A DNA stretch of 64,000 bases, from positions 13,082,001 to 13,146,000 of the forward strand of contig OZ024755.1 of the NCBI GenBank assembly GCA_964016885.1, read 5' to 3'. Below are positions 4,084 to 50,187 of this stretch, piece by piece. The notes below the pieces were generated by a model. It ran no database searches, was not told the DNA's origin, and saw nothing but the letters and a program-made list of their open reading frames with translations. Numbering within the stretch: the first letter of the stretch is position 1; every line of letters begins with the position of its first letter. Source of the DNA: Eledone cirrhosa (Eukaryota). A program made the translations under genes and the position numbers.

Positions 4084-4623
4084 GTTTCAACAAATATATA
4101 TATATATCATCATAATTTAACTTCAGTTTTCCCTAATAAGTGTTGGACAGGTTGTCCCAGAACAAGTCAGTACTCAAGCGAAGCTACTGACTTCTTTAAT
4201 GGGCTGGGGGCTCACATTTTGCTTACAAATATCTCCTACTACACAGTAGATACAACACACCTAACACACAGCAAATATCTCTCACTACACACCACATAAC
4301 TAAACCTGTTCAAACCATCACTGGTCAACTAATTCTAGTGACTAGACATACTGTACATATTTGAAAATAAGCCAAGGAATATATGACCCCAAAAAATATA
4401 TTGTAAAATGGAAATAGAGGTAGGGTCAACTTATATACATCATCTAAACAATGTATTGATTAGCTGCCTCAGCTTATAAATGGATGGAGTATTGATTTTT
4501 GCCCATTCTTCGGGCAATAAAAGGTGGAGGAGCCCCCAGCTTATATTCAAGTATATACAGTATATAAAGCTAACAGTGTGATGTGTTTTGTAGGATACAA
4601 AGAAATAGTCATGAAATAATTAC

Positions 4624-4747
4624 CTTATATTTCATTGCAAGCTCTGTGTTTTCATCAATATCAACTTTAGCTAAAATAATGTCATCTTTATGTTCATCAC
4701 AGATTTTTTCCAATCGTGGAGCGAGTAGTTTGCATGGACCACACCAA
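4624..4747 (-). CDS. TXN2: Mitochondrial thioredoxin, coding exon 2 (WCGPC active site)
   Basis: tttttag acceptor; AC+T completes Thr, then WCGPCKLLAPRLEK...LAKVDIDENTELAMKYK; donor gtaatt. Confidence 0.96.
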
Positions 4748-4829
4748 CTAAAAATAAAAACAGTCTTATATAAAGAATAATAAACAATTATTTCAATTAA
4801 GGGTTTAATTATCTTCATTATCACAATGT

Positions 4830-5220
4830 GACATCGATATAACCACTTTACATTGTGGACTGGGTACTTTTTGTTGTGGCACCTACATGACCACTTTACA
4901 GTGTGGACTGGGTTCTTTTTATTGTGGCACCTACACGACCACTTTACAGTGTGGACTGGGTACTTTTTGTTGTGGCACCTACACAACCACTTTACAGTGT
5001 GGACTGGGTTCTTTTTATTGTGACACCTACATGACCACTTTACAGTGTGGACTGGGTTCTTTTTATTGTGGCACCTACACGACCACTTTACAGTATGGAG
5101 ACTGTGTACTTTTTGTTGTGGCACCTACACAACCACTTTACAGTGTGGACTGGGTACCTTTTGTCATGACACCTATACGACCATATTACAGTGTTGTGGC
5201 ACCAAAAATGACCACTTTAA
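4830..5220. repeat. 42-bp minisatellite, about 9 units, in a TXN2 intron
   Basis: Unit accactttacagtgtggactgggt(a/t)ctttttNttgtggcacctacacN. Confidence 0.9.
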
Positions 5221-5874
5221 ATTTAGATAATGTAATAAAATATTGCTAGCTAAACTATCAACATCATTATCGTTTTTATATTGATGTTTCCATGCTGGCA
5301 TGGGTTAGATGGGACTTTTTGGGGCAATGTTTTACAGCCAGCCACCCTTCTTGACATCAATTCATTCAGTCACTTCTTACAGTGTACCTATTCTAAACTG
5401 GATCAATTTGAGGAAAATACAAAAATATATGCAATATATCTTTACTGTTTAGTCAAGGAATGGAGTAGAGCACATATGATTGCTTGTTTATTTATCCTTT
5501 CATTGTCTCTAAGACTGGTGAAAGGAAGGGAGGAAGTTATCCTTGAACCAGAGACTTGGCTTAAATAATTCCAACAGAGGCAATTCTACTGAAGATAAAG
5601 GACAATAACTGAATCAGGCCATAACAAACCTATCCATCCCATGCTGGCAGGAAAAGCAAATGGATGATGTTTATGATGCTGATGAGTGAAATGATGTTGA
5701 TGATAGTTGTGGTGATGCTGATGATGGCAGTGGTAGTAATGTTGACAATGATGATGGTAGTAGTGGTGATGAGACTGATATGCCAAATTATAAACCAATT
5801 TATAACAAAGAATGGAAATTTAAAGTAAAAAAAAAAAAAATATGAAACAAACAAAAAACACGAAAATAACTTAC

Positions 5875-6140
5875 GTAGCATGGAAATCAACAATGACAGG
5901 TTTGGAACTATCTAGAACTCGCTTCTCAAAATCAGTTTCATCTTGGATATTGATACATTCCAAAGCAGCAGTTGAAGAATACAATTTTCTCTGTTTATTT
6001 GATGTAATTAGAAGCAATTGAGACTTCTCCCCATTTAACATAGATCTTTGGTGAAAACATCTGCTGGCAAGGAATGAAATCCTATGTCTTGCAATATTTG
6101 TACATAAAGGAAGCAGCCTTGAGAATTGTCTGGCAGCCAT
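5875..6140 (-). CDS. TXN2: Mitochondrial thioredoxin, coding exon 1 (transit peptide plus start of the Trx fold)
   Basis: ATG at 6140. Arg/Ser/Leu-rich N-terminus MAARQFSRLL..., then NIQDETDFEKRVLDSSKPVIVDFHAT. Donor gtaagt after 5875; acceptor cag just above 6150. Confidence 0.95.
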
Positions 6141-6896
6141 TTCAACAGATCTGGAGAATTAAGAATAAAATTAACAAGCGAAAGTTTCATCATACTGAAG
6201 TTCTGAAATTTAATATAGTATAGTTTTAGTTAAGTTATATGCAAAATAACAACAAATGGTGATTTGTTGAACTGTTGTTATTTTCATGACAAACATTTAC
6301 AATTATAAGAAGGAGCGATCCACCCTTAAAGTCCAAATCTTGTTACCTGCTTTGCTGGAATCGAAAGGTTGTGAGTTCAATTCTCAGACCGGGTGATGTG
6401 TTGTTTCCTTGAGCAAGACACTTTATTTCACATTGCTCCAGTTTACTCAGCTGTAGAAATGAGATGATAGGGACTGGCTCCCTATCATTCCACTGCAAAG
6501 TGGTCGTGGAGGTGCCACGGCAAAAAAGCACCCAGCACTCACTGTAAATGAGGTTGGTGTTAGGAAGGGCATCCAGCTGTAGAAATCAAGCCAGAATCAG
6601 TTCCCGTCCCACCCTTGCAAGCAGGGAAAAGTGGACGTAAAATGAAATGAAATGAATGAAATGATAGGCAATTTTTTCCAAGCAGTGGGCCGCATAGGAT
6701 GTGGTTCATCACTACTAAAAATTCAAAAACAATTTTGAAATTAGGTGTGCCATTCAAAAAGCTATACTGGTTGCATGCAGCTCGTGGGCCACAGTTTTCC
6801 CATGACAGAACTAAGGCATATCCACATTTACACCCATATTACATAGATCTCCTTGGAAGAAAATGAAAATATTTCGCCTGAATTACCAGACTCATA

Positions 6897-8879: not shown

Positions 8880-9489
8880 TAGCGTGGAAGAATGGGCGTA
8901 AAACGGTGATGATGATATATGTATATATATTTACATATATATATATGATGACTGCAACTCGATTTTGAGTAATGTTATTGCTTGATACTTAAGCATGAGC
9001 ACCACGGACGTGGCTTTGTAGTCCTGCTAGGGACTTCCCTATGGCCAGCAATACAATGCATCGCATAAAATGTCACATATCACATATCAAGCAATGCCTG
9101 TGCTTGAAGCCTTTTTAAGGGAGGAAAGGCTTTGCACGGGACCAATCCCACTCTCTGAACATCAAATGTATTTGCCCAAAAAGAAGAACTGGTCTACATC
9201 ATTGGATAATAATAACTCTGGCTTTATTATATAGAAACTACATGGGTGTGTAAACTGAGCTTGGGAGGATCGGTGGTCCACACATTTGATTTGCCGAATT
9301 TGGAGGATGAGTATGGTTGCTCTGGCAGGGTTCTTTGTGCATAGTTTTCAACTACTAAATTTCACCTACAAAACTTTCATTGATCTGAAGCCTATTCATG
9401 TAGTTGTAAAAGGAATTTCCTAACCCTACAGCCATGCTGCTACCACTATGCTATATGTTTTACATTATATTTATATATTCTTTCTATAG

Positions 9490-10026
9490 ATTATTGCTCT
9501 CTCTGGGACGCTGAAGATAAATATAAAAGACAAAAGAAGAAATTAACAACATTTATGAAAGACTGGCAAAGATCCACTGAAGCTTATTTAACATTTAATG
9601 CTAAAGAACGGACCCCAAGTCGCCTGTCTTCTTCCTCTTCTACCTGTATTTTTTCTGACAGAAGAAGCAATCAGCAGGTGAAAGCAATCAACAGGTACAA
9701 ATATTTTGGTAATGGTGAAACTGAAAATGGCCATAATTCAAAATTGAATGGATTTTTAAATAGTGACAGAATTCTTAGAAGCACTTCCAGCTATTCTTAC
9801 CATGTGCCACGGCATATTTCAAGTGTTCGGAAAAGGGTTGCAACATCACACATATCTCAAACACCAACAGAAAGACACTTTCCTACTAATGAAAGTAACT
9901 TTGATGCTGATGCTGCTGAAAGAGAACTTCTCCAAAGAATCTCTTCGAAAAGAAGACAGATGATCCCACAAATAACATCACCTATTGATCCGCCAACGTT
10001 ACCCAGAAATATTAAACATAAATATG
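9490..10026 (+). CDS. TEX33: TEX33/CIMIP4-like protein, coding exon 2
   Basis: tttctatag acceptor; open frame DYCSLWDAEDK...MKDWQ...PTLPRNIKHKYG; donor G|gtaaat at 10027. LPRNIKHKYG resembles TEX33 IPENIRHKFG (recalled). Confidence 0.75.
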
Positions 10027-11000
10027 GTAAATCTTTCTGAAATGATATCCTTATCATCATCATCATCATCAACATCATACGTACATATACATCATAAATA
10101 CACTTACACACATATTTACATCATACACGCACACAGACATACACATAAATACATTCACACACACATATATACATCATAAATATACTCATACACATACATC
10201 ATAAATACACTGACAGACATACATATATATCATAAATGCATTCACATACATATATATCATAAATGCATTCACACACATATTTAAATCCTTAATACAGACA
10301 CACGCATGGGAGCATGTGTGTGAGGGGCTTCAACGAAGTTTCCATCTATAAATACCTTCCAAGGCATTGGAATGGGATTGTCGTTCAGTTACAAAGATGA
10401 AAGAGGAAAAGAAAGGGTCGATAGTGTAAAATTACACACACATGTACACCAGGTCCAAACACAGAGTAACCAAACTTCCACTGTCATTGCCTCACTCTCT
10501 TTCGGCCTCCCCATTTTTCACTATTATGAGCAAATGTGGTCCCACATGCTGGCCACCCCACAGCCCAGGCGGACAGAATAGAGGTGTTTCCCCGGAGGAT
10601 GGTGAAGGAGATGCGCTGGAAGAGCCATTCCAGCTTGTGAGGTTCACACCTGTGGCCATCCAGCTCAGTGCAATTGGTCGACCTGAAGCTATAGTAGAAG
10701 ACATTTTTTGCCCAAGGCACTAAACAGTGTGATCAAACCTGAAACCATGTACAAAGCAAACTCCTTTAATTACACAACAACCATTGTATCTTCAGTTAAT
10801 ATATATATGATCATTATTTCCTTTAAAATTCCCGCCGAGGTTAACTTTGCCTTTCATCCTTACGGGGTCGATAAAATAATAACCAGTAATGTACTGAGTA
10901 TTTGCTGGCCTTGTGCCTAAAGTAGAAACAATTATTTCCTTTAAAATTGTTGTTTGGCTGTTTTAATACTTCCTACAAATTGTATTCTTTTTGACAACAG

Positions 11001-11310
11001 GTAGCGCCATCTGTGATGAATTATTGAACAATGAAATGTTGACCAATGAAGCAATTTCAAAGATTGAAAGAAAAGATTACCGTGAGAAGAAGGGGGGTAA
11101 TTTAGTTATTCAATGTCATATGAATCATTTTGCTCCATCAGCTATACAAACACAACTTCCATATAGAGATTTGTCCAACTGTCTTCGGAGGAAGATCTTC
11201 GCTGGAGATGCTACTGTTTATACCCGTAGTACAACTCAGTCAGATTACTGTGAAGATGTCTATAATGTTCAGTTTGCTCCTTCTAAATATCGACGTAAGA
11301 AATACGATCA
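11001..11310 (+). CDS. TEX33: TEX33/CIMIP4-like protein, coding exon 3
   Basis: Acceptor caacag at 11000, in phase. SAICDELLNNE...YRDLSNCLRRKIFAGDATVYTRSTTQSDYCEDV aligns by eye to TEX33 SNVVDQLVSEE...[32 protein letters not shown]. Donor CA|gtaact at 11311; an unspliced read stops at 11314. Confidence 0.78.
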
Positions 11311-12930
11311 GTAACTATTGTTAGAGATTCACAACTACATTTATTATCACCAAAAAATATCATGGTGGATTGCCAGTATCAGTCGAGCATCGGACACCAT
11401 GCTTTATGACAAGGGGTTACGAATTTTTACGATCTGAGTTCAAATCCCGCAGGGGTTAGCTTTGCCTTTCATTCTTACGGGGTCAATAAAATAAAGCACC
11501 AGTAAGTACTGGGGTCAATTTAATCGACTTTTCCCTCCCCTTCAAATCGCTGGCCTTGTGCTTAAAATAGAAACAATTATTACTTTTCTATGAATATAAT
11601 AATATAATGCTTACATCTATATTACAAAAATATGGACACAAATAATATACACAATACTTAATGAATACTTACAGAATAAAAATGTAAACCCATATAATAA
11701 ATACAAAGAATTATTGCTAGGAATCTTATAAATTATAGTGCACAAAAATATATGATCAAAGCAAGAGAAAAAAAACATACAAATAAACTATCAATTCACC
11801 AGTCAGTCTATCAATCGGTCGCACATCACAAGAGTTGCACACTGGGAGTCAACATGTAGTTATTTGACTTGCTAGAAACAACAGCCAAATCTTTAAATCA
11901 AACCCTACAATCTTAAAAGAAGACATGTTGGATAATATGGTCCTGAGTTTTCTGCATATTTATATAAAGATGGTATGGTCATGGCTGGAATATTATTTAT
12001 CATGGTTCTACTCAATTGGGGTTGACTGAAGCAAGACAACAAGAATACATACATTTCTATTTGTATAAATACTCCATATAGGGGTTTTTTTTGTATAGTT
12101 AAATGACCCATGGGGATATTATATATGAAAAGTCACTCATGCATTCTTTAAATCACCTTAATACTCATACACACACACTAAATACCATACACAAACACAC
12201 TAAACTCCACATACACACACTAAACACCATATTTTCACACACAAAACAACATACACACACACACTAAATACCATATACTCACACTAAATACCATACATTC
12301 TCACTAAATACCATACACACATATACTAAACACCATACATACTCACATATGCTAAACATCACACTCACAAGCACCAAGAATTAGACGAATTCGCACTAAA
12401 ATCTTTCCCTAACACACACACACAGATACAACCTACACCTGAGCCAAATAACAATAAAAACAGTTTCCATATTTCAATGCTCACAGTCGGAAGATTTCCA
12501 ACCAGCATAGAAATTTTCAGTCACTATAAAGAATAATATTTACAGTCACTGTGAAGAATTATAGCTTTGATTCTATCAATAAAAAAATCTATACGCGATG
12601 CATATATTGAGTTCTCTTTCTTCTGGAGGTATCCTTACCATATATCTTCAACATCATTATTGTTTTATGACTGTTTTCCATGCTGGCATGGGCAGGGACA
12701 GTGGAACTGTGGGGTCCATGGCCCTGTCCAATAAAAACCACAGACCCTCCATCTCAACTCACCTTTTGAAAAGCAGAAGAACTGCGAAACCGGTAAAGGA
12801 ACCAAATAAATATATATATTTTTTTTAAAAATAAGACTTCAGTTGCATTTTCGATTTCATCCCTTTTTCTTTATACTTCCACTCGTGTAGGACACCTCGG
12901 TTATTTTTCATTTTGTAAAAAAAACCTCAC

Positions 12931-21100: not shown

Positions 21101-22281
<1,181 letters not shown>

Positions 22282-23390: not shown

Positions 23391-23471
<81 letters not shown>

Positions 23472-23547
23472 ATATTAATAAATGGAAACTATATTTATAA
23501 AACCATATTTATTCTATTATATATATTTCAAGGGTACCAAAATTTTG

Positions 23548-23608
23548 TATTTTATCTGATGAGAGCGTACCAAAGTTTTGGTACCCTTGAAATATATATA
23601 ATAGAATA
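23548..23608 (+). ncRNA. Minimal type I hammerhead ribozyme motif
   Basis: Stem I tattttat/atagaata; CUGAUGA at 23556; stem II gagcgtaccaaa/tttggtaccctt; GAAA at 23589; palindromic stem III; AUA cleavage after 23600. Confidence 0.7.
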
Positions 23609-23737
23609 AATATGGTTTTATAAATATAGTTTCCATTTATTAATATCATTGATATTATACTCCAGAAAACTTGTCGAGTGCTTCGAATCTGTTATAAATA
23701 TATTTGTTGAATTACCAACAAATTAAATATCTCTTTG

Positions 23738-23939: not shown

Positions 23940-24273
23940 TATAAATTAATATTTGATGAACATTTACATGTTTTAGTTGTAATTGACTAATAAGATCGCT
24001 AATTAGTTAATTACTTTACTATTATACCATCCTTTGTGAAACATGTTTGAAGTTTGAAGTTCTGACCGATCTGCGGAAAAAGTTTGTATTTTGAATTTTA
24101 AACGTGTCTAGGTACCAAGGCTTTTTGCTCATATGAGTCTGTGAGTATTGATTTATTATTTTCTAGATCGTACAGGCAGACCTTATGTTGTTGAATTAAG
24201 ATTTTTCACTCTAGTGATCTTATTAGTCAATTACAACTAAAACATGTAAATGTTCATCAAATATTAATTTATA
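23940..24273. repeat. Inverted repeat (62-bp arms, 210-bp spacer)
   Basis: 23940-24001 versus 24212-24273 with one G-T mismatch; flanked by TA-rich tracts. Confidence 0.85.
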
Positions 24274-24341: not shown

Positions 24342-24382
<41 letters not shown>

Positions 24383-24400
24383 CCTCTTCCAAATATTTTC

Positions 24401-24744
24401 CTATGAATGTGCCAAACTTTGTCTTCTGTCATCTGTAATGTCAGATAGGATGAATGGATGAAGTCTCTGAGCAATCATTTTAAGTTTGTTTATAAGTAAT
24501 TGCTTAGTCCGAAGTGGCTGGCTATGTTGTTGTACAGCAATACCTAGAGATGAAGCTGAACCTCTTTTACCAAGGCCTACATCAAAATATATTCCATTGC
24601 TTGTATATAAAGGTAGTGGTTTCTCTGGTGGTTTCTTGTACATGAATGGTATATCAACAATTTTCCACGGGATGAATGACCAAGGGTGGACTTTCTTGTA
24701 AAGACTAGCAATTTCATCTCTCATTGCTGGATAAAAGTCATGTC
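24401..24744 (-). CDS. Secreted prepropeptide, exon 2 (peptide-bearing region)
   Basis: Acceptor ttttgtttatttgcag; A+GA gives Arg. Non-repetitive open frame HDFYPAMRDEIASLY-KK-VHPWSFIPWKIVDIPFMY-KK-PPEKPLPLYTSNGIYFDVGL-GKR-GSASS...DD-RR-QSLAHS*. Confidence 0.72.
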
Positions 24745-25003
24745 CTGCAAATAAACAAAAATTATTAAAACCATCATTGGAATACAATTCCACATGTACA
24801 TACATAATAATTGTTTCTACTTTTTGGCACAAGGCCAGCAGTTATCCCAGTGCATTACTGGTACTTTATTTTATCGACCCCGTAAGGATGAAAGGCAAAG
24901 TTAACCTCGGCAGGATTTGAACTCAGATCGTAAAGGCCCGTAACTCAATGCTGCAAACCATGGCGTCCGACCCTCTAACGATACTTCCAATCCACCGCCC
25001 TAC

Positions 25004-25320
25004 ATAATAATAATAATAATAATGAAATTATTGTGTACAGTGCTCAGGTGCACTACAACTCATCAAAGGTGCATGTATAGTACATAGAATAATGTTCAAA
25101 TGTCAGGAAAATGAACAGTGTACGAGTCATGAAATACATGTGCGTGTGTGTATGGAAGGGGGACATCAGGTGCAGTGTTGGCGAATCTCAAGAAGCATGG
25201 AGGTTTTACAGGATGCAGTGTCTCAACAGCTAACAACTGATGCAGGTAGTTTGTTCCATGGAGGTTTTAAAGGATACAGTGTCTCGACAGCTAACAACTG
25301 ATGCTTGTTCCATGTATGCA
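25004..25320 (-). mobile_element. 3' end of a CR1/L2-like LINE (also about 38623-38820)
   Basis: Two dispersed copies ending GTTGTAGTGCACCTGAGCACTGTACACAATAATTTC(ATT)n. Confidence 0.5.
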
Positions 25321-27589
25321 CACTGACACATGCATGGAAAAAAAACCATGCATCTCCCATAGGTCTACATTTTTCCATCTCCAGATGTATTAGGGATGTT
25401 TTACCTGATTTATTCAACTATAATTTACAGTCACCAACTATTATTATAGTTATCCGACTATATTTTCAAATTATATATATATATATATAATAGTAAACAG
25501 AAAACAAAGCTGCAGTAGACAGTTGTCCTGTTATTAAATAGTGTTTGACAGGTGTATATCTGTCGTGTGGCTCCTGTGGGACAGGAAGTCCCCCCACTCC
25601 CTATAACACATAATTGGTTAAAGAAAACCAGTAATGGAATAAAACAATGGAATATAGCATGAGATGGAATCAGAACTGCAAATGGCATTATATATTCGAT
25701 AATAATAGAATTTCAAGAACTCTAAGAAAAGAAATCCACTGTCTGTGGTATCTACAAGATTTCTTAGCATCAACTCTTATATAGAGAAATGTATACAACA
25801 GCCACAATACATAGAGTAATAACAGTTATATAGATAATAATATAAGCTTTCTGATTGACTTAGAACAATGAAAGTATACATATGTGTGTGTTGGCAGAGA
25901 AATATATATATATATATATATATATATACCAGGTGGACCATAATGCACCAGAGTACTCAATACTGAGGATAGTAGAGTGGGTAATAGGAAAAGAGTCAGG
26001 ACCCCGATGGCTGAGCTCTAGCCATTTTGACAGCTAGATCCGAACTCATATATATATATGTATAATATATATATACACATGACACATCTGGACTCTCCAC
26101 CTTGGTGCCCACTCCTACTGAAGAAAAGCAAATTCTTATGATATATTAAATTTTAACATTCTGTTTTACATGAAACCTCATTAGCTAGACATTCTTGAAA
26201 ACTATAGAACAGCACTATGACTACATCACATTAAAAACTGAAATCTTTACTTGAGTTTACTGTAAATTTTCCCAATAAACTGTCCTCTTGTAAAGATATA
26301 CACATTTGAAATAACAGACTATATGAAACAAGATTAATACGATATACTTGAAAAGTATTACAGCAAATTTTCTTAATGATCTTTCCATTACTAAAGATAC
26401 TATAAAGATTTGAATTCAAAACTGCATGAAACCACATTATTAAGACATTCTTTAAAGGTATGACTGCATCACACTAAAAATTAATGTCATGACTAATACT
26501 ACAAATTTTCCCAACGACCTGTCCTCTAGTAAAGATACTATAAACATTTGAATTAACAAACTGTATGAAATCACATTATAAGAACATTCTTGAAAAAGAC
26601 AACACAACACATTAAAATTTTGTCTTTATTCTAATACTGCTAATTTACTCAACAATCTGTCCACTAGACATTTCTGAAAAGTACAAAACAGCACTATCAT
26701 TGTATTTCATTAACATTTTGTTTTTGCTCAAATATCGCAAATTTTCACAATATGTCCACTAATAAAAGATAACAAAAGCGTTTTAGAATTAACAAATGAA
26801 TTTTAAATTTAAACAACTCTTTTAAATATTTTCTGTTAAACATTATAAGATATTAAAAGTTCAGTTGTCCAGTATTTTTATTGTGTTGGTGTTCCTCTCA
26901 TTAATTAAATGCTATCATCAATGTTTCTATGGAGTTAGGTTTAAATGACTGGGGAATAAACAAAGTTGTTTGCAAATGGGTTTTCACCATTACATTAAAC
27001 CATAATGAAATAGGAGGAGGGCGCGGTGGGAATTTATGGAGGAGGGTGGAGTGGGAATTTATGGAGGAGGGTGGGGTGGGAATTTATGGAGGATGTGGGG
27101 TGGGAATTGATGGAGGAAGGCAGGGTGAGAATTGATGGAGGAGGATGGGGTGGGGGTATTGGTGGATGGGGAGGTGTATTAGCGATGGAGGGGGTTGATA
27201 AGGGAAGAGATGGTGAAACAAAAGATATTTCTGTTCTTTAAGACTGGTGACAATGACAGAAAGGGGAAACGAAAGAGAAATGATAAGGTGGTGATGGTGG
27301 TGATGATTGTGGTGGTGGTGGTGGTGGTGGTGGTGGTGGTGATTGTAGTGATGGCGGTGGGGAGTTGGTAAGGGTGTGTAAAGGAAGGTGTGGTAGGTGA
27401 GTACAACAGAAAGAATATAATAAGAACCAGGAGAGAATAGGGGAAAAAATATAAAAGATGGCTGTAGAGAAAATGACAAGAAATATACACACCCACACAC
27501 ATATACACATATATAGCATATATATAAATATATTTTGTGCTCTCTTTCCCTTTATATGTGTGTCTCTCTCTATATATATATATCTATAA

Positions 27590-28295
27590 CGGCAAAGCAT
27601 AAATGAACTAAGTGAGAAATTAGGAATAAGAGGGATCAGATGCTGTTTACTTGAGAGAAGACTACGTTGGTATGGTCACGTGATGTGCATGAAAGACGAC
27701 AGCTGCATAAAAAAGTGCAGGGCGATCAAAATTGATGGTAGTTACGGAGTAGGTAGACCCAGAAAAACCTGGGACAATCTGATAAATTCCGACTTTACAC
27801 ACGTGCACCTCTCTAAGACAATGTCACTGGACCGAGATCTTTGACGCTATGCAGTAATACAGAAGACCCGCCTTGCCTATGTACAAAGCGAAACCTACAG
27901 TCAGTAGGCACCTCTTAACCAAATATACACCCCAATCCACTACCCCTACCCTATCCTCCCACTCCCACCAACACCACCCTCTCTCTGTAAAGTTGGTACC
28001 ACAACATCCAGTCCAAATAAATGAGATAATGAGATCGAGATCGTGTAGGTGTCACGACAAAAAAACACACAGTCCACGCTGTAATGTGGTCGTGTAGGTA
28101 ACACGGTAAAAAGTTCCCAGTTCCACACTGTAAATGTTGTTGGTGTTAGGAAGGGCATCCAGCCGTAGAAAACCTGCCAGATAGTCCTATATTAGCGAGA
28201 CACGGTCACCCGACCAACCTTGCCTCAAGTGGGACAACTCCCGTCTAACCCATGCTAGCGTGGAAGATGGACGTTAAACGATGATGATGATGATG
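27590..28295 (+). mobile_element. 3' fragment of an RTE-clade LINE
   Basis: RRLRWYGHVMCMKDDSCIKKC...GRPRKTWDNLI; same 3' UTR and (GAT)n tail as 21314. Confidence 0.85.
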
Positions 28296-28485
28296 ATATA
28301 TATATATACACTGTAAATGTGGTTGGTGTTAGGAAGGGCATCCTGAATGAGCAAAACAAGGTCACCCAACCTAACATTGCCTACAACAGGACAGCCCGTC
28401 TGACCCATGCTAGAGTAGAAGAATGGATGTAACGGTGATGATGATGATATATATATATATGTATGTATATATATATATATGTATG

Positions 28486-28560
<75 letters not shown>

Positions 28561-28637
28561 GTAGGTCCCGGGTTGAGTCGGGGATAACCACAGTAAGTAA
28601 GGTACTCAATACATGGCAGAGTAAAATTTTTTTATTT

Positions 28638-28744
28638 TATAGAAGGAGCTTCTACAGGACTAGTACTGTTTCATTCAGATGAAATCTTCAGGAAGCTTCC
28701 TGAAGATTTCATCTGAATGAAACAGTACTAGTCCTGTAGAAGCT

Positions 28745-28753
<9 letters not shown>
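28638..28753. repeat. Perfect 100-bp palindrome (28646-28745) carrying a hammerhead-like core on both strands
   Basis: No spacer, centre gaag|cttc. Each arm reads CUGAAGA-tttcatctgaat-GAAAC-agtacta-GUC. Confidence 0.85.
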
Positions 28754-28797
<44 letters not shown>

Positions 28798-29375
28798 CAA
28801 ACAATTTAAAAAATGGCTTGTTACAAAATTTCAAGTCAGTTGCTGTGTAGCTATGTAATAAAGAAATTATTATTTGATACATACATACATACATACATAC
28901 ATACATACATACATACATACATACATACATACATACATACATACGGATAAACAGTAAATAGATTGATTTATATTTCCTGTTAAAATTCGATTAATAAGGT
29001 AATTTGACTGACTAGAGTGACAAAAAGAACAGGTCATTAGATGACAAAAAAGGACAATTTACTTTATCCCAGCACCACTTTAATCTGTCATGAAGGCATA
29101 TCATTTAATGTCCATTTGTTGACTGCTATTGCTTACATAAATACTAAAATATATTGATGTTACAGCTCTTAAGATTTCACCAGTGATGAAAAATTCATGT
29201 TATTTTCAGACATCTATTTATGGTGTTGCTCATTTATTTTCTATATTCCCTGCAGATTACATATATATATTAAACACTCGCATACCTAGATAAACATGTA
29301 CACACACATGCACATACATATATAGACACACACACAAACATTCACTAAAGTACAGGCTTTGTATGGTTGCTGTGT

Positions 29376-29721
29376 CATCATCATCATCATCATTTTACGT
29401 CCACTTGTCCCTGCTTGCAAGGGTGGGACGGGAACTGATTCTGGCTTGATTTCTACAGCTGGATGCCCTTCCTAACACCAACCTCATTTACAGTGAGTGC
29501 TGGGTGCTATTTTTCCGCGGTGCCTACACGTCCACGACCACTTTGCAGTGGAATGATAGGGACCCCAGTCCCTATCATCTCATTTCTACAACTGAGTAAA
29601 CTGGAGCAATGTGAAATCAAGTGTCTTGCTGAAGGAAACAACACATCACCCTGTCTGAGAATTGAACTCACAACCTTTCGATTGCAAGGCCAATGCTCTA
29701 ACCACTAAGCTATGTGCCTCC
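29376..29721 (-). mobile_element. tRNA-derived SINE family B with an RTE-shared tail (also 6355-6665+; partials 39320-39600, 53020-53140, 58588-58800)
   Basis: Head TAGCTTAGTGGTTAGAGC...GAGTTCAATTC; tail AGGAAGGGCATCCAGCTGTAGAAA...(GAT)n matches the RTE LINE 3' UTR in this window. Confidence 0.85.
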
Positions 29722-30947
29722 ATATGTGTATATGTGTATGTGTATAAATGTATGTATATTGAATATATAAGTATGTGGGTTTATGTATGAATATATGTAC
29801 ATTAAAATATTGAGTCTATGTATGTATATTGAATATATGAGTGTATGTGCCTATAAATGTATGTATATTGAATATATAAGTGTATGTGACTGTGTATATT
29901 AAATATATGAGTGTATAAATGTATGTATATTGAATATATAAGTGTATGTGACTGTGTATATTAAATATATGAGTGTATAAATGTATGTATATTGAATATA
30001 TAAGTGTATGTCTGTATGTATATTGAATATATGAGTGTATGTATATTGAATAGATGAGTTCATCATCATCATCATCATCATTATCATGTCCGTTTTTCCA
30101 GGCTTTCATGGGTTGAATGGGTCCTTTTCAACACACCATCTTTCCCCTCACTATGCTCCTTCGTCACCCCTCTGTGAGCCTCAGTGATTTGGTCTATCTC
30201 TACTGCAGCTTCCCTCCACTGGGATTTCCTGGCACTTCTTCACCCAGCGATCATTATCCATGCACATCACATGTCCCTAACAATGCAGTCTTCTCTCTTG
30301 CACATCACTTCTCATTTCTCTTAAACCCAGTTTCTCCCTCAGTTCAGCCAATGTATGTATATAGAGTATATGAGTGTATGTATATGAATGTATGTAATAT
30401 TCTCAAACAAACTGTAAAAATCTGAGCCTGACAAATCAGAGCTTAAAACCTGAATGAAATATATCTAGTCCTTTTTACTTCATATTCTCTTTCATTCTGC
30501 CTCACTCTCTCTCTCTACTTGAATTAAAGGTGACAAAAAATTGTCATTGGAACATCTGATTAAATGCCTCTTCAGATGTGATAAGGGCACAACATCCCTA
30601 GTGTTGGTGTCACAATAAAATGCATCCAGTGCACTTGGTAGAGTGTGGGAACATATGTAAGCAAGTGGTCGGTGGTTCTGATTAAGTAGTAACTTGATCT
30701 GTGACTAGCCGGTATGCCAAATATCTTGATTTAACTGTAAGGTAGGACATATGTTAAGTCTTCTCCTAATCACTGGTCATTTAAAATAGGCCATAGAATA
30801 ATAGTTTTATTTTGAAAGATTGTGTTGAACAAGACATGAAATAAATTAACAACTGTTCACAGTGGGAAGAGTCCAGAGTGTAGGGTAGGCTGTATGGGAA
30901 CAAGAGACATGTATATTCAGTTCTTACACACATGCACACGCGCACAT

Positions 30948-30989
<42 letters not shown>

Positions 30990-31374
30990 GGGATAACAAA
31001 TTATCGTTATAGGTAATCCAGTTAGAGGTTGGGAGTACTCTGTATTGTGGATAGTTTTAACGTACAGCGTTTCCTTAGTTAAGTGGCGAGTTCTCGGAGA
31101 GATTTTTAATGAACATGCGAACTACTACAACATAGTTTCACTTAAGGCAGGCCACAAGGACAGGCTCAAATACTCTAAATGAGACATTGTATCTTTATTA
31201 TACACAAACATAGTCCATTATTTTTTATACTCTATGCTCTGAGAACTTATTAATAGGTATTAGCCAAGCTAATCATATATATTTAGTACTGACTGCTAAA
31301 ATACTAAATGAGCAGTTTGAAATGTAGTCTACATTTTATATCTGGCCTGGGTTTAATACCAGCTTGAGGTAGCA

Positions 31375-32045
31375 TGGAGCCTACATTTCACATTTCATCT
31401 TGGCCTATTACCATCTTTAAGAAGGAGGCTTACATTTTTACATCGAACCTGGGCCTTTTGGGGTCTATTATGGGGTTTCACATTTGGCCTGAGCCTCTTA
31501 CCATCTTTGTGTAGAGGCCTACATTTCACATCTGGCTTGGGCTTCTTACCATCTTTGTGTAGAGGCCTACATTTCACATCTGGCCTGGGCTTCTTACCAT
31601 CTTTGTGTAGAGGCCTACATTTCACATCTGACCTGGGCCTCTTACTATCTTTGTATTGAGGCCTGCATTTCACATCTGGCCTGGGCCTCTTACTATCTTT
31701 GAGTGGAGGCCTGCATTTCACAACTGGCCTGGGCCGCTTACTATCTTTGTATTGAGGCCTGCATTTCACATCTGGCCTGGGCCACTTACTATCTTTGAGT
31801 GGAAGCCTGCATTTCACATCTGACCTAAGCCTATTTCCAAGCTTGAGGGGAGCGGAGAAGTCGGGCAATATTTTATATCTGGCTTGAGTCAATTAACAGC
31901 TTGGGAGATGGCGTCATACATTTTTCATCTGGTCTAGGCATACTTCCAGCTTTGGGAAGGGGGCTTATATTTTAGATATAGTCTGGGTCTATTGCCAGTG
32001 TTGAGCAGGAGTGGGCCTACATTTCACATCTGGCCAAGGTCTAAA
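31375..32045. repeat. 42-bp minisatellite (older related array about 47900-48200)
   Basis: Unit ggcctRcatttcacatctggcctgggcctcttacYatctttg... Confidence 0.9.
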
Positions 32046-32711
32046 CCAGCATGAGATGGAGAGCATTATAGACCACTGTGCAAAGCAATGTATCAGGACC
32101 CCTACATGCACAACCACAGTATACATAGATTAGGATTGGACCCCTAGGTATGGTGTGCCCTTAGGTTACTGTCCAGTGTCCCCATGCTTTAAGATGGCAC
32201 TCTGCATAGGTCAGGTGATAATCAAACTTAACAAACATGATACCTTTACTTTAACCCTTTAGCATCTAAACCAGCCGTATCTGGCCAGAATTCTCTCACC
32301 TCTTTCTGTTCAAACCGGCCATAACTGGCCCCTCATACTAACATTAAAGTATTGTTCTCAAAATAAATAATATCAAAATCTCATAGATTCGATATCATGT
32401 AATATAATTATGATTTCACTGGGACAATAACTATTGACAGTACAAGTACAAATATATCATACAACTTCTTAACCCCTCGGTCGTGTTGTGGCTACTTGGA
32501 CAATGACCAATGAAATGAAAGTACAAGTATATCATATGAAGCTCGGCTGAAAAGTTCATCAGCTGATAATGAAGGAGTGATGCTAGAGCTGTGAAATCTT
32601 GCATGCATTAATTTCAACTGTTCTTATAAATAACTGCATTGTTTTTTTTTTTGTTTTTTGTTTTTTTACTTTTCAGCCTTTACAAATTAAAAATATAATC
32701 TTTGTACTTAC

Positions 32712-32778
32712 TTTTCTCACACTGACTAGGACATAGGATGGTTAGTAAGATCAAGCCGAACACTAAATGTGTCTTCAT
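32712..32778 (-). CDS. Secreted prepropeptide (candidate neuropeptide precursor), exon 1: signal peptide
   Basis: aacaacATG start; MKTHLVFGLILLTILCPSQCEK has a basic n-region, hydrophobic core and S-Q-C cleavage site; consensus donor A|gtaagt at 32711. Too short to appear in the ORF track. Confidence 0.7.
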
Positions 32779-33127
32779 GTTGTTGTTGTTGTTGTTGTTG
32801 ATGATGATGATCTGTTGTTGTTGATGTTGTTATTGTTGTTGGTGTGTTGTAGCTGTTGCTGTTGTTGCTATTGTTGTAGCTGCTATTGTTGTTGTTGTTG
32901 ATGATGGTCTTGCTGTTTTTGATGTTGTCGTTGTTGCTGTTGTTATCGTTGATGGTGTTAGTCTTGCTGTTGTTGATGTTGTCGTTGTTGCTGTTGTTGT
33001 TGTTATTATTATTGCAGTTCTTGTTGTTGCAGTTGTTATTGTTGTTGTGGTTAGTGGTAAGTTTTATCAGTGTTACACCATCATATATATTGTGATGTAC
33101 TGTCATTGCCAAGACTGCAGCCCTCTC

Positions 33128-33135
33128 TTTTTATA
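33128..33135 (-). promoter_or_regulatory. TATA box of the prepropeptide gene
   Basis: TATAAAAAG on the minus strand, Inr-like ACAGT about 32 nt downstream, CCAAT at 33151-33155. Confidence 0.5.
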
Positions 33136-45558: not shown

Positions 45559-45836
45559 TTACTCCACACTAACCTTCCAGTCTTTGTTAGCAAACACCAT
45601 GGCAAAATAGAATTTGTCACTTGGTCTACAGTAGTTCTCATCCACTTCATTGAGTGTATGTAGGTAAGGTTCAGTGTGTGGTACATTCCAGTCAAAGGTG
45701 ACTTCCTTCTCCTCCACTTGTATAGTTACACGTACCTTGCCACTGGACAGGATCTCAGTGTCAAAAGTTACAAATGAACTCTTACCCCAATATGGGAGCT
45801 TATTTTTCATCTCTTGGCCATCTACGTACACTTCTC
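45559..45836 (-). CDS. CRLF3: CRLF3 last coding exon
   Basis: GEVYVDGQEMKNKLP...VTFD...KVRVTIQVEEKEVTFDW...FYFAMVFANKDWKVSVE*. Spliced CDS is 1344 nt, 447 aa. Confidence 0.93.
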
Positions 45837-46367
45837 CTGCAAGATAAATAAAAGTATATGAAATAAAAGTAAAAATTTTTTCAAAATTGTAAATATGTTT
45901 GCCAAATGTGAAATTATTAACCCTTTTTGATACTTTTAAGCACTGAGAATATATATATATATATATATAGGATGTCCCAAAAAATGTATACATATTTTAA
46001 TTACAATGCTGTTGAAGTGTGTATACATTTTGGGGGGACACCCTGTATATATATATATGTGTGTGTGTGTGTGTAAAGGATGATGTGCTCAAGCGCAGAG
46101 ATGCTATGAAATAGAGTGAAGACCATTAAATGACGAAAAAAGAGCAGCCGATGGCAACTTTTTCCATCTTTTAAGGGTTTCCACTATTTTATAAGCTATT
46201 TTATAGTATCTCAGCATTGAGCACATCATAATTAATACTTATATATACTTGTGTTGTTGTTGTACACACTATGTCTAGAAAGATTGGATGGTCACAGCTA
46301 GAGTATTTTTGATCATAAGTTTGCTTGATTAAGACTGACTCAGAACAAAACCACTAGATGAACTTAC

Positions 46368-46610
46368 CATCAACTGTAACATAAGCTGCACCAGGTCTTC
46401 TTAATGTATTACAGGAAGATAGATTGAGAGACAAACCAACTCCATCTCCAGGACAGGAATCACCAGCATCTAACACTCGAAAAGTAATTGATTGACAAGC
46501 TGTATACAAACATCCACAGGAGTAAAGCACAACGGAATCACCATCACAGCATTTTGTAGCTGTCTGGTTCTCATTACTTGTCATATAAGCAACATTTTCA
46601 TCATCCCACT
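46368..46610 (-). CDS. CRLF3: CRLF3 coding exon 6 (SPRY-like region)
   Basis: EWDDENVAYMTSNENQTATK...VLYS...CQSITFRVLDAG...LRRPGAAYVTVDG; AG/GT boundaries. Confidence 0.92.
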
Positions 46611-46863
46611 CTAAAAAATAGAAGAAAACAGAAGATATTGTAGGACATATAGTATATTTGGCACATCTTGTGTGTGTATGTTCGTATGCATTCGTGTGTA
46701 TATTCGTGCGTGTGTGTCAATGCGCCAATATTTAATTTGTTTCACCCAAGGGAGACAAATAGAGATAAACTACATGCGATAAAGATATGTACTACAAAGA
46801 ACCTATTCTATAAAAGCGTTTACAGAAGAAGAGACGAAAATATGGGAGATAACTATAACTTAC

Positions 46864-47107
46864 CGTAATGAGGCAAAGTTGTGAAAGCTACAGTTGGTAC
46901 ACTCCATACACTCCAGGCTGTGTCAGTGTCAGCACGGCATCGTGTTCGGAACGAATAAGGATGGTTAGTTTGTAAGTGTTTCACTAAATATAAGGAGTTG
47001 CTGCCCAAATATGCATTATGGAATGGAACACAAGTATCTTCATTTGATTTGATCACACCTGAGGTATACTGAAGACAAAACTCTGTAGCATCAAAATCTT
47101 CTTCAGT
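46864..47107 (-). CDS. CRLF3: CRLF3 coding exon 5 (FN3 domain with WSxWS)
   Basis: TEEDFDATEFCLQY...YSFRTRCRADTDTAWSVWSVP; WSXWS motif present. Confidence 0.94.
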
Positions 47108-47634
47108 CTGAAAGATAAACAACATTTATTTAAACTACAGCACGACAATAGACAAACCTAGGAATATATATGTATGTGTATGGGGTTGCAGAAGCAGTGA
47201 TAATATGTAAACAATTCTATTGTTACTAAACCATCAGGAGTTCACGCCATGCATTGAACTCATCACAGGAGGCAATGGTGACACAAAAACATACAACTTC
47301 TAATACATACGTTATGGAGATGACAACACAAGAAGACTTTCATAATATATGTCTGGCCCTTGTAGAACTAATACAACCCTAGCTTTAACTCTCACACATA
47401 TCAAGTTATAGCATAACTGTAATGAGGTACCCCCCCCCCCTCACACACACACACACTTGCAATATAGAGTACATACAACCTTAGCTCTAACTCTAACATA
47501 CATCAGGTTATAACATAGCTGTGATGGAGTACCACTACTTGCAATATTGAATTCATACAATTTATGGACAATATACACTCAAATTTCCATAAAGTTATTC
47601 ATTAAAAAACTAGTCCTGGACTTTGATGATTTAA

Positions 47635-47676
<42 letters not shown>

Positions 47677-48476
47677 ATATATACATATATATACCATGGG
47701 CCCTTAACTCTGACCAGATTAAGCCAAAGTTGAGGTAGATGGGCCAGTTGGCATGGACCCTACTATTTTGAAGGGACTTACCTTCCTTAAGTTTTAATTC
47801 TTTTATTCTGTTCCATTATTTGTAAGTATATCACATACACTACCTGTATATTTAGCACTGATTACTAAAATACTTCATGAGCTGTATGAAATGGGACCAA
47901 CATCTTGCAGCTAATCTTGGTCTATTCCCTACATTTGGGGGCCTACATTTTACATTTGGCCTGGGCCTATTTCTTTCTTTAATGGGCTTACATTTTTCAT
48001 CTAGCTTGTGTTTTATAGCCATTTTTCTTTGATGCACATTTCAGATCTGGACCTGGCCTATAACCATTTTTTTTTGGGGGGGGGGTTTAGCTATATCTCA
48101 CATCTGGTTTGGGCCTATTACCTACTTTTTTTGTAGGTAGGGGGAGCTACATTTTACATCTGATCTGCACCTCCAATTAATTGTATGGGTAAAATTTCAC
48201 ACCTGGTTAGGAGTCATTATTAGCTTTGCATTGGCCTGAGTTTAACAAAGTTAGTGTTTTACTTTAGAAGCTGAGAGAATTATCAGAGGTAATTATAGCT
48301 TGGGGCTTCTCTAATGAAAGTTTATGAAGAGGCCTGCTCTCATCTATTGCAGGCTCACAATGGTTGACAACAAATATAATGCAGGGAGATTCTTCACTAA
48401 AGAGATCTGACCATGCTTATTGCAGACCCATTGATGCTTGACAGAACAAATATATAGCAGACAAACTCTTTGTTAA

Positions 48477-48682
48477 CCCTTTAGCATTTACATTACTCTA
48501 TATATACTGTTGTATTTTCATGGTAAAGGCTTTATCTCACATAATGTTAAATCTATGATTTTGATATTATTTATTTTGAGAACAATACCTCAACGTCAGT
48601 ATGAGTGGCTGGTTACAGCCAGTTTGAACAGAAAGAGGTGAGAGAATTCTGGCCAGATACGGCCAGTTTAAATGCTAAAGGG
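48477..48682 (-). mobile_element. piggyBac-type MITE
   Basis: TTAA|CCCTTTAGCATTT...AAATGCTAAAGGG|TTAA; same family as 56209. Confidence 0.8.
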
Positions 48683-49747
48683 TTAAGAAGGCTTGCTCCC
48701 ATCGCTGCAGGCTCATTGATGGCTGACTAGATCAATACAGAACAGATACAGAGATAATATTGTGTGAAGTTAAACTACTACTAAAAATCATCATCTTCAG
48801 TGGATACACAGAGGAAAAAACTACAACTGATTACAACATGCAACAATGTGAGGTGCAAAGGTTGACTGTTTCAGGTACTAAACTACTAGCCTAGAGGTTA
48901 TGAGTTCAAACCCTACCTGAGGCATTAGGAAGAGCAGCCAGAAGTGAAACACCTACTCTAGAACCGGTTTCAACCGGTCATGATTATTGTCTTTTCTCTC
49001 TGGACCATCAAATAAATAAAAGAATTTTTTTTTAGATAATTCAAATGACATATCTGCCAAGTCAATCAATGGGAATTTCTATAAATTCTAGTGAAGATCT
49101 GCACAGATTAGAGACGAGGTAAGGCTCATATAGATTACAAAGATGTTTAGGTCAACAATAGGTTTTCAAATTATATACTGTATATATTCATGTGTAAGTC
49201 ACACCTTTTTTCCATGAAAATACAACATAAAAAAACAGCATTTGACTTATCTATTGTACCTACAAAATGTTGATTCAAAGCATATGGTGCATTGTAAATG
49301 TTATATGTAAAATGGAGGTGCAACACATACATGAGTGAATATGTGAGCATGTATATATGTATATATATATATATATATACTGGACCTCCAAAACTACACT
49401 TCAAAATATGATGCATTGTAAGTGTTGTATGTAAAATCTAGAGTGATTTATACATGATACATGAGTATAATTGTAATATGAAATCTTTAAATATTTCTAT
49501 TTTCTAATTATAAATAATAATTAAGTTTTAATTGCGTAATTTAATATTATAATATATTCACATGCAATTATTATTATTTCATGTTTAACAGCCAGATGTC
49601 ATTCCTGGCACTAACCCTTTTAGTCACCTCTACCAACATACTCTAACGAATCTGCTAATCCACCACCGAATTAAGTTTAAATTTAAGACCGAAAACCAAA
49701 ACAATTTTTTTTTTTAAAAAGAGAGGAGAAGAGGAAAAACAACTTAC

Positions 49748-49925
49748 CTCGCTCCATTTAACTAAAAGAGCTCCAGGTCGTTCAACAACATCTGCAATCT
49801 GTACTGGAGCTTTGGAGATCACTTTCATTTCTTTTGACACATAATCTAGTATTTTATCTTTGTTTGACCCAGCTAAGTCTACTGATATACAGGCAACCTC
49901 TGACAGACTTGGGATAGCTGGAACA
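49748..49925 (-). CDS. CRLF3: CRLF3 coding exon 4
   Basis: VPAIPSLSEVACISVDL...SKAPVQIADVVERPGALLVKWSE, like CRLF3 SRPPVQIEELIEKPGGIIVRWCK; donor gtaagt. Confidence 0.92.
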
Positions 49926-50187
49926 CTGTGTGAAAGAAGAAACGTGGATTGTTAAGTAGCAGAGTTAAGAGCAGGGATCCCAAAACGTTTTGTATGTGTT
50001 TTTTGCTGAGAAATAATCATTGAAAAAGAAGTTACTAATTAACAAAATAATTACAATTATTCAATTCTGATCCCTCCTTACATCTACTTTTTCTATTATA
50101 AATAAAACATTAATAATGTTTATTATTGTTTTATGACAACAATCTTATAATGTTGATTTCTGTTTTATAGTAGGGCAAGCTGAGTAA

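What the first reader, a model, noticed from the sequence alone, without database searches (positions are those of the whole stretch)
24401..33135. Unrecognised 136-aa prepropeptide gene: candidate novel amidated neuropeptide or secretory peptide precursor
Seen in sequence (minus strand): a TATAAAAAG box at 33135, a (CAA)n-rich 5' UTR, and a 67-nt coding segment MKTHLVFGLILLTILCPSQCEK ending in gtaagt. About 8 kb away is a phase-compatible terminal exon. The splice itself creates a KR site right after the signal peptide. The product divides into HDFYPAMRDEIASLY-KK, VHPWSFIPWKIVDIPFMY-KK, PPEKPLPLYTSNGIYFDVGL-GKR and a C-terminal piece with RR. Established knowledge: a signal peptide, dibasic convertase sites and G-K-R are the standard prohormone layout, and GKR gives a C-terminal amide through PAM. 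Inference: the mature peptide is PPEKPLPLYTSNGIYFDVGL-amide. Its GL-amide end recalls buccalin/allatostatin-A, and FDVGLGKRGS weakly recalls the DH31 N-terminus. I cannot assign the single-copy precursor to any family I recognise.
Basis: partly seen in the sequence, partly recalled or inferred. Interest (0 to 1): 0.82.

Follow-up and report, generated by a model that had tools for sequence, protein, structure and literature searches.

The report
Orphan octopus amidated peptide precursor gene
This is a real two-exon octopus gene, shared with three other octopus species and matching no known family, that likely makes a secreted hormone-like peptide of about 40 to 60 amino acids rather than the 20-residue peptide first proposed.

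Summary
The gene is real. Both exons, the 7,967-nt phase-1 intron and the 136-codon frame are as described. Unnamed orthologues exist in Octopus sinensis, O. vulgaris and O. bimaculoides: exon 2 is 62-63% identical, each protein starts with a signal peptide that matches exon 1, and the gene lies beside CRLF3, as here. Nothing outside Octopus was found among 1.84 billion representatives, in Pfam, in the PDB or in the paper library. G-KR, the first KK and the terminal RR-QSLAHS are invariant. The splice-made KR and the second KK are not (Octopus has KI/KN and KE), so the 20-mer is unlikely. The likely product is one amide of 40 residues, or about 57-60, ending IYFDVGL-amide. It fails the published AstA/buccalin motif and shows no match to DH31, galanin or CRF models. 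No RNA, tissue or peptidomic evidence was obtained, so neural hormone versus gland secretion is open. Verdict: an undescribed, possibly octopod-restricted peptide precursor.

The parts
33127..33135 (-). TATA-like box; a CAGT initiator-like core has its A at 33101, 34 nt downstream (candidate start site, inferred)
   Evidence: 1 of 76 such motifs in the window, weak alone
32779..33052 (-). (CAA)n-rich putative 5' UTR; a short upstream ORF (ATG 33084, 3 codons) precedes it
32712..32778 (-). Coding exon 1 (67 nt): hydrophobic signal peptide, 22 codons plus 1 nt; phase-1 donor GTAAGT
24745..32711 (-). Intron, 7,967 nt, repeat-rich; no in-frame internal exon candidate under the scan used
   Evidence: splicing inferred from orthologous proteins, not seen in RNA
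24401..24744 (-). Coding exon 2: 113 whole codons and the stop
24698..24742 (-). N-terminal segment (exon-2 residues 1-15): highly conserved, possibly part of the mature peptide
   Evidence: residues 2-15 are 10-12 of 14 identical, 14 of 14 similar
24692..24697 (-). First KK, invariant in 4 of 4; followed by V, I, I, T, so cleavage is uncertain
24572..24691 (-). Predicted 40-residue Pro- and aromatic-rich peptide ending IYFDVGL (amide predicted); contains the non-conserved second KK
   Evidence: 25-26 of 40 identical; the last 7 residues invariant
24563..24571 (-). G-K-R: predicted convertase site with amide-donor Gly, invariant in 4 of 4
24428..24562 (-). 45-residue C-terminal associated peptide with a conserved, probably helical core (residues 76-95)
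   Evidence: 20 of 45 identical overall, 12-13 of 20 in the core; model confidence low
24404..24427 (-). RR followed by an invariant 6-residue tail starting with Gln (possible pyroglutamyl hexapeptide)
   Evidence: 8 of 8 identical in all three orthologues, after a 2-of-10 stretch
24346..24351 (-). Nearest AATAAA after the stop (next at 24157): candidate polyadenylation signals
   Evidence: not tested in RNA

Best explanation
A two-exon octopod gene encodes a signal peptide and a single-copy precursor that is likely cut at its invariant G-KR and RR sites to release one long peptide predicted to end IYFDVGL-amide, which likely acts as the animal's own neuropeptide or hormone on a GPCR. Shown: gene anatomy, orthology, and which sites are conserved. 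Inferred from standard prohormone biology: ER entry, convertase cleavage, carboxypeptidase trimming and PAM amidation. The amide would be 40 residues if the first KK is cut, or about 57-60 if it is not. A 45-residue associated peptide and a Gln-initiated hexapeptide would be co-released. Tissue and receptor are untested.
For: Orthologues in 3 Octopus species begin with a hydrophobic signal segment that aligns to exon 1 (10 of 18 identical, pairwise E 9e-6). Microsynteny: in O. vulgaris the precursor and CRLF3 have consecutive accessions (CAI9721878, CAI9721879), and in all three species both lie on contigs of the same length. 8 of 9 residues at the window protein's basic and amidation sites in exon 2 are invariant, against 67 of 113 overall. 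The exon-2 protein has no Cys, no transmembrane-length hydrophobic stretch and no confident fold (mean pLDDT 45.8). By language-model features the whole O. sinensis protein is nearest to neuropeptide precursors: galanin 0.91, CAPA 0.91, PBAN 0.90, DH31 0.90. Identity of 62-63%, against 86-88% for a CRLF3 exon between the same species, fits a fast-evolving precursor with conserved islands.
Against: No RNA, tissue or mass-spectrometry evidence was obtained. The site enrichment is borderline (P = 0.057). The 11-residue invariant run around GKR is reached in 2,055 of 20,000 shuffles, so it is not exceptional alone. The Atlas scores lie where 4-10% of shuffled proteins also fall, and the 21-82 fragment scored 0.87 at best with unrelated top hits. 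No homologue outside Octopus was found, whereas most molluscan neuropeptide families are widely shared (PMC6425005). Octopod-restricted precursors of the same layout also occur as venom peptides.
Confidence: 0.55

Rival explanations
1. The same processing occurs, but the product is an exocrine secretion (salivary/venom gland or reproductive gland) acting on prey or on conspecifics.
For: Found only in octopods. A venom-gland survey lists 27 superfamilies of short secreted proteins of unknown function, many without homologues outside Cephalopoda, and an octopod-only family with dibasic sites (10.64898/2026.02.02.703354, main-text parts 1-2). Its sequence file S1 was not visible.
Against: Single copy in the window and one cluster in the database. 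Neighbours are CRLF3, a TEX33-family exon and a thioredoxin, not the FABP and NR-GRF that flank the SF1 arrays. Only 12 of 133 columns vary among the three Octopus species. None of 6 terms was found in the 2.8-million-character supplement of an O. vulgaris posterior salivary gland proteome paper (PMC7693380); the file's coverage was not checked.
Confidence: 0.2
2. It is a highly diverged member of an old bilaterian family: galanin/AstA type, DH31, or CRF/DH44.
For: The top Atlas hit is galanin (0.91, 160 of 256 features). Cephalopods keep GALR-like receptors, and no buccalin precursor was found in O. bimaculoides (PMC8514136, passages). ELH/DH44 was not found in cephalopods (PMC6425005). A roughly 40-residue amide is the size of family-B GPCR ligands (recalled).
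Against: No Pfam match at E up to 10 for the exon-2 protein or its fragments, and only a bacterial lipoprotein-signal hit (E 0.73) for 1 of 3 orthologues. No PDB chain matched. The end VGL-amide is neither FGL- nor GxL-amide. Only 1 of the ten best Atlas family hits shares the top family, which the tool reads as probably wrong.
Confidence: 0.12
3. It is a small secreted protein that works largely intact, and the basic pairs are incidental.
For: Conservation spans most of the chain, including the region after GKR (12-13 of 20 in the core) and the tail. Four basic pairs arise in 1,154 of 20,000 shuffles.
Against: No Cys in exon 2 and no confident fold. G-KR and RR are invariant while their neighbours drift. 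The language-model neighbours are prohormones.
Confidence: 0.13

Closest known systems
Single-copy bilaterian prohormones (galanin-type layout: signal, short pro-piece, long amide, G-KR, associated peptide)
   Same: Layout and size; nearest by language-model features.
   Different: No sequence match to the Pfam galanin or GMAP models; layout details for galanin are recalled.
Allatostatin-A / buccalin
   Same: Predicted C-terminal Leu-amide with Gly before it.
   Different: The family ends FGL-amide (insects) or GxL-amide (molluscs) and comes as many short copies (PMC5996578 section 19; PMC8514136). This gene has one long VGL-amide.
DH31 / calcitonin-type
   Different: The molluscan calcitonin/DH31 peptides listed end in SP-amide, most with two Cys. 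Exon 2 has no Cys and no terminal Pro-Gly. In molluscs DH31 proper was found only in a chiton.
Octopod venom superfamily SF1 (octotensins, octopus tachykinins)
   Same: Octopod-restricted, short, with a signal peptide and dibasic sites.
   Different: SF1 forms tandem arrays between FABP and NR-GRF and ends octotensins in RRPYIL. This gene is single, lies beside CRLF3 and lacks that motif.
Uncharacterized proteins LOC115210315 (O. sinensis), LOC106869042 (O. bimaculoides), CAI9721878 (O. vulgaris)
   Same: Direct orthologues by sequence and synteny.
   Different: They lack the junction KR and second KK and add KRR and KK in the C-terminal piece; annotated without function.

Membership tests
Secretory prohormone (general) | N-terminal signal peptide | tested here: met
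   Hydrophobic core (9-residue Kyte-Doolittle mean 2.3-2.9) in 4 of 4 sequences, aligned across species. SignalP itself was not available.
Secretory prohormone (general) | Conserved dibasic convertase sites | tested here: met
   First KK, KR and RR invariant in 4 of 4; junction KR and second KK not conserved; enrichment P = 0.057.
Secretory prohormone (general) | Gly before KR for C-terminal amidation | tested here: met
   G-K-R invariant in 4 of 4; amidation itself is inferred.
Neuropeptide | Expression in neurons or neuroendocrine cells and release of the processed peptide | not testable with these tools
   No RNA holder listed; the main Styfhals 2022 data archive was too large to read.
Neuropeptide | Activation of a cognate receptor | not testable with these tools
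   Needs a cell assay.
Allatostatin-A / buccalin | C-terminal FGL-amide or GxL-amide | tested here: not met
   Ends DVGL in 4 of 4; motif from PMC5996578.
Allatostatin-A / buccalin | Multiple related peptide copies per precursor | tested here: not met
   One GKR per precursor; 7-29 copies in molluscs.
DH31 / calcitonin | About 31-38 residues ending Pro-amide; N-terminal Cys ring in the calcitonin type | tested here: not met
   No Cys in exon 2 and no Pro-Gly-dibasic end; no Pfam hit; comparison sequences read.
Galanin | Match to the galanin / GMAP profiles | tested here: not met
   No Pfam hit at E up to 10 (HMMER filters drop weak hits); Atlas 0.91 is a lead only.
CRF / DH44 / ELH | About 40-residue amide with conserved N- and C-terminal motifs | tested here: not met
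   The post-GKR piece has no amide donor and no Pfam or PDB hit. A PFSLDI stretch in Octopus that recalls CRF (from memory) is not kept in the window protein.
Venom SF1 | Tandem array flanked by FABP and NR-GRF | tested here: not met
   Single copy in 64 kb; neighbours CRLF3, TEX33-family, thioredoxin.
Other octopod venom-gland superfamilies | High expression in salivary glands | not testable with these tools
   File S1 of the preprint is closed; one proteome supplement gave no hit.

The most novel reading that the evidence does not exclude
This is an octopod-born family of long amidated peptide hormones, 40-60 residues with no homologue outside octopuses, and it is the missing ligand of an orphan cephalopod receptor such as the GALR-like GPCR that only cephalopods keep among molluscs. 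That would contradict the view that cephalopod brains evolved without new neuropeptide families.
Probability: 0.12. Interest if true: 0.75.

Novelty: new member of a known kind. Interest (0 to 1): 0.48.

Why it matters
A broad survey concluded that cephalopod nervous complexity was not matched by lineage-specific expansion of neuropeptide families, while noting that homology searches could miss divergent or lineage-specific ones (PMC6425005, passages). A 2026 preprint counts only one cephalopod neuropeptidome study, on cuttlefish. This gene is a concrete candidate for such a missed family. It is already annotated in three model octopuses, so expression and peptide masses can be checked in existing data. 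It also offers a testable ligand for orphan cephalopod GPCRs. If it proves glandular, it is a new venom or pheromone peptide family.

Tried and rejected
No whole genome is held, so paralogues could be sought only in the window (one copy). Sequencing runs: no RNA holder listed. The 3 runs found (one sample) behave as DNA: their contigs run from exon 2 into the intron. The stretch laid (24385-25890) did not include exon 1, so the splice was not tested. Homologue searches found one cluster only: 1 of 2 candidates; profile, 1 of 3,359 candidates; only the query among 1.84 billion. Absence in squid and cuttlefish is weak evidence: CRLF3 drops from 86-88% to 67% there, so a short precursor could fall below detection or be unannotated. 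Argonauta hians has an annotated CRLF3 but gave no precursor hit. Structure prediction was low-confidence, so no fold search was run. An amphipathic or antimicrobial reading of helix 76-95 was rejected: its hydrophobic moment is unremarkable against shuffles (678 of 5,000 here, about 3,000 of 5,000 in Octopus) and its charge varies. The in-frame acceptors at 24816 and 24726 are less likely: 24744 has the best pyrimidine tract and matches the orthologue length. Literature: 5 accessions and 6 motifs gave 0 papers. Supplements gave 0 hits for PMC9712504 (main files unreadable), PMC12607849 (393 characters only), PMC6425005 (2 of 6 files cut), PMC7693380 and PMC9815951 (5,821 characters only). The Sepia neuropeptidome was not read, and the Albertin 2015 genome paper is not held. 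Earlier scan findings: none. No complex prediction was sent, as there was no defined partner.
Full report
Observation. On the minus strand, an ATG at 32778 opens 67 nt that end before GTAAGT, and a TTTGCAG acceptor opens the second coding exon at 24744, which runs to a stop at 24401. The intron is phase 1 and 7,967 nt long, and the CDS is 136 codons. A TATAAAAAG lies at 33135 with an initiator-like CAGT 34 nt downstream, but it is 1 of 76 such motifs in the window. Contigs of three DNA-type runs from one sample carry exon 2 with 0 differences.

Is it a gene? Yes. Exon 2 finds one protein cluster (E 5.6e-40, 63% identity) with 4 members: O. sinensis, O. vulgaris and two O. bimaculoides models, all uncharacterized. 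Three of the 4 begin with a signal peptide that aligns with exon 1; the fourth is a 106-aa model that starts at an internal Met. O. sinensis reads K-I-D and O. vulgaris K-N at the junction. That is what a 3-nt loss at a phase-1 junction gives, for example a tandem acceptor. It suggests an intron at the same place, but this is inference, and a genomic deletion would look the same. Synteny agrees. The window has CRLF3 exons at about 45.5-50 kb. In O. vulgaris the precursor and CRLF3 have consecutive accessions, and in all three species both lie on contigs of the same length. The CRLF3 exon is 78-80 of 91 identical to Octopus, 81 of 91 to Argonauta and 61 of 91 to cuttlefish, so the window comes from an octopod outside these Octopus species.

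What conservation says about processing. Invariant in all 4 aligned sequences: the first KK, IYFDVGL-GKR-G, and RR-QSLAHS at the end. Not conserved: the splice-made KR and the second KK, which is KE in all three Octopus and is followed by Pro here. KK pairs, and sites followed by Pro or a beta-branched residue, are poor convertase substrates; this is recalled, and my one search for a source confirmed only the general dibasic and amidation rules. Its first 13 residues are 5-6 of 13 identical, its last 7 invariant. The first KK is followed by V, I, I and T, and the segment before it is 10-12 of 14 identical and 14 of 14 similar, which is high for a discarded spacer. The most likely amide is thus 40 residues (first KK to G-KR; exactly 40 in all four) or about 57-60 residues from the signal cleavage. 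Against overreading: 8 of 9 site residues invariant against 67 of 113 overall gives P = 0.057, and the longest invariant run is matched in 10% of shuffles.

How it most likely works. Shown: signal peptide, conserved G-KR and RR, no Cys in exon 2, no transmembrane segment, no confident fold. Inferred from established prohormone biology (PMC6756747, passages): ER entry, convertase cleavage, trimming and amidation, releasing a long Pro- and aromatic-rich amide, a 45-residue associated peptide and a Gln-initiated hexapeptide. The invariant C-terminal heptapeptide would be the receptor-contacting end. I put 0.55 on an endogenous neuropeptide or hormone, 0.20 on a gland secretion, 0.13 on an intact secreted protein and 0.12 on a diverged member of an old family. 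Nothing here shows the tissue.

Comparison with known families. Pfam, PDB sequences and 1.84 billion cluster representatives give no relative outside this cluster. Language-model features place the whole protein among neuropeptide precursors, galanin first (0.91), but the family call is weak by the tool's own measure, and the 21-82 fragment gave nothing above 0.87. It works like a single-copy prohormone but is not a member of AstA/buccalin (motif and copy number fail), DH31/calcitonin, CRF/DH44 or venom SF1. None of the mollusc-specific families described for oyster, scallop or the broad mollusc survey fits by description (PMC8398477 sections 23-24; PMC5996578 section 40; PMC6425005 results parts 1-2 and section 11). 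One lead is worth testing: cephalopods keep GALR-like receptors, and no buccalin precursor was found in O. bimaculoides (PMC8514136, passages). A repetitive 'lxgkr' neuropeptide named in the O. bimaculoides optic lobe (PMC9815951, passages) is described as repetitive and so is probably a different gene; its sequence was not seen.

Novelty. Searches for 5 accessions and 6 motifs found no paper, and five supplement searches were blank with limited coverage. Subscription papers, the Sepia neuropeptidome and preprint supplements were not seen, so prior description cannot be excluded. Other papers seen: PMC9712504 and PMC7200681 as passages; 10.64898/2026.02.18.706622 as passages; 10.64898/2026.02.02.703354 as abstract, two of three main-text parts and passages; PMC12607849 and PMC7693380 as listing and supplement search only.

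Verdict. A real, conserved, unnamed peptide-precursor gene of octopods: a new member of a known kind, with no detectable family. Interest 0.48; tissue expression and MS would move it either way.

Noticed in passing
window 45562-49951 (-): Exons of cytokine receptor-like factor 3 (CRLF3); the last exon is 88% identical to O. sinensis and 90% to Argonauta hians. Used as the synteny anchor.
   Followed up: yes
window 4612-6158 (-): Thioredoxin-domain exons (Pfam E 1.1e-13); the Arg/Ser-rich leader suggests the mitochondrial type (recalled, untested).
   Followed up: partly
window 9384-11314 (+): Two long ORFs; the second matches the TEX33 testis-expressed family (E 6.7e-07).
   Followed up: partly
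window 31476-31826, in the intron: A 48-bp tandem array (7.3 copies, 91% matches) that stays open for 165 codons on the minus strand; no Pfam hit.
   Followed up: partly
window 28638-28753, in the intron: Near-perfect palindrome, 58-nt arms with no spacer, between TA tracts; likely a small foldback or MITE-like element.
   Followed up: no
window 23467-23651: Inverted repeat with 81-nt arms (99%) and a 23-nt spacer about 750 nt past the stop, between TA tracts; it could fall in a long 3' UTR.
   Followed up: no
window 33106-32726 (-): An out-of-frame ATG at 33106 opens a 126-codon Asn-rich frame that overlaps the signal exon; it lies 5 nt upstream of the candidate start site, so it would be excluded from the mRNA.
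   Followed up: partly
window 24793-25353: Very high-copy interspersed repeats begin about 50 nt into the intron from exon 2 (summed contig depth above one million).
   Followed up: no
window 21208-21780 and 27590-27844 (+): ORF fragments resembling the end of LINE-type reverse-transcriptase proteins (recalled; no Pfam hit for the first).
   Followed up: no
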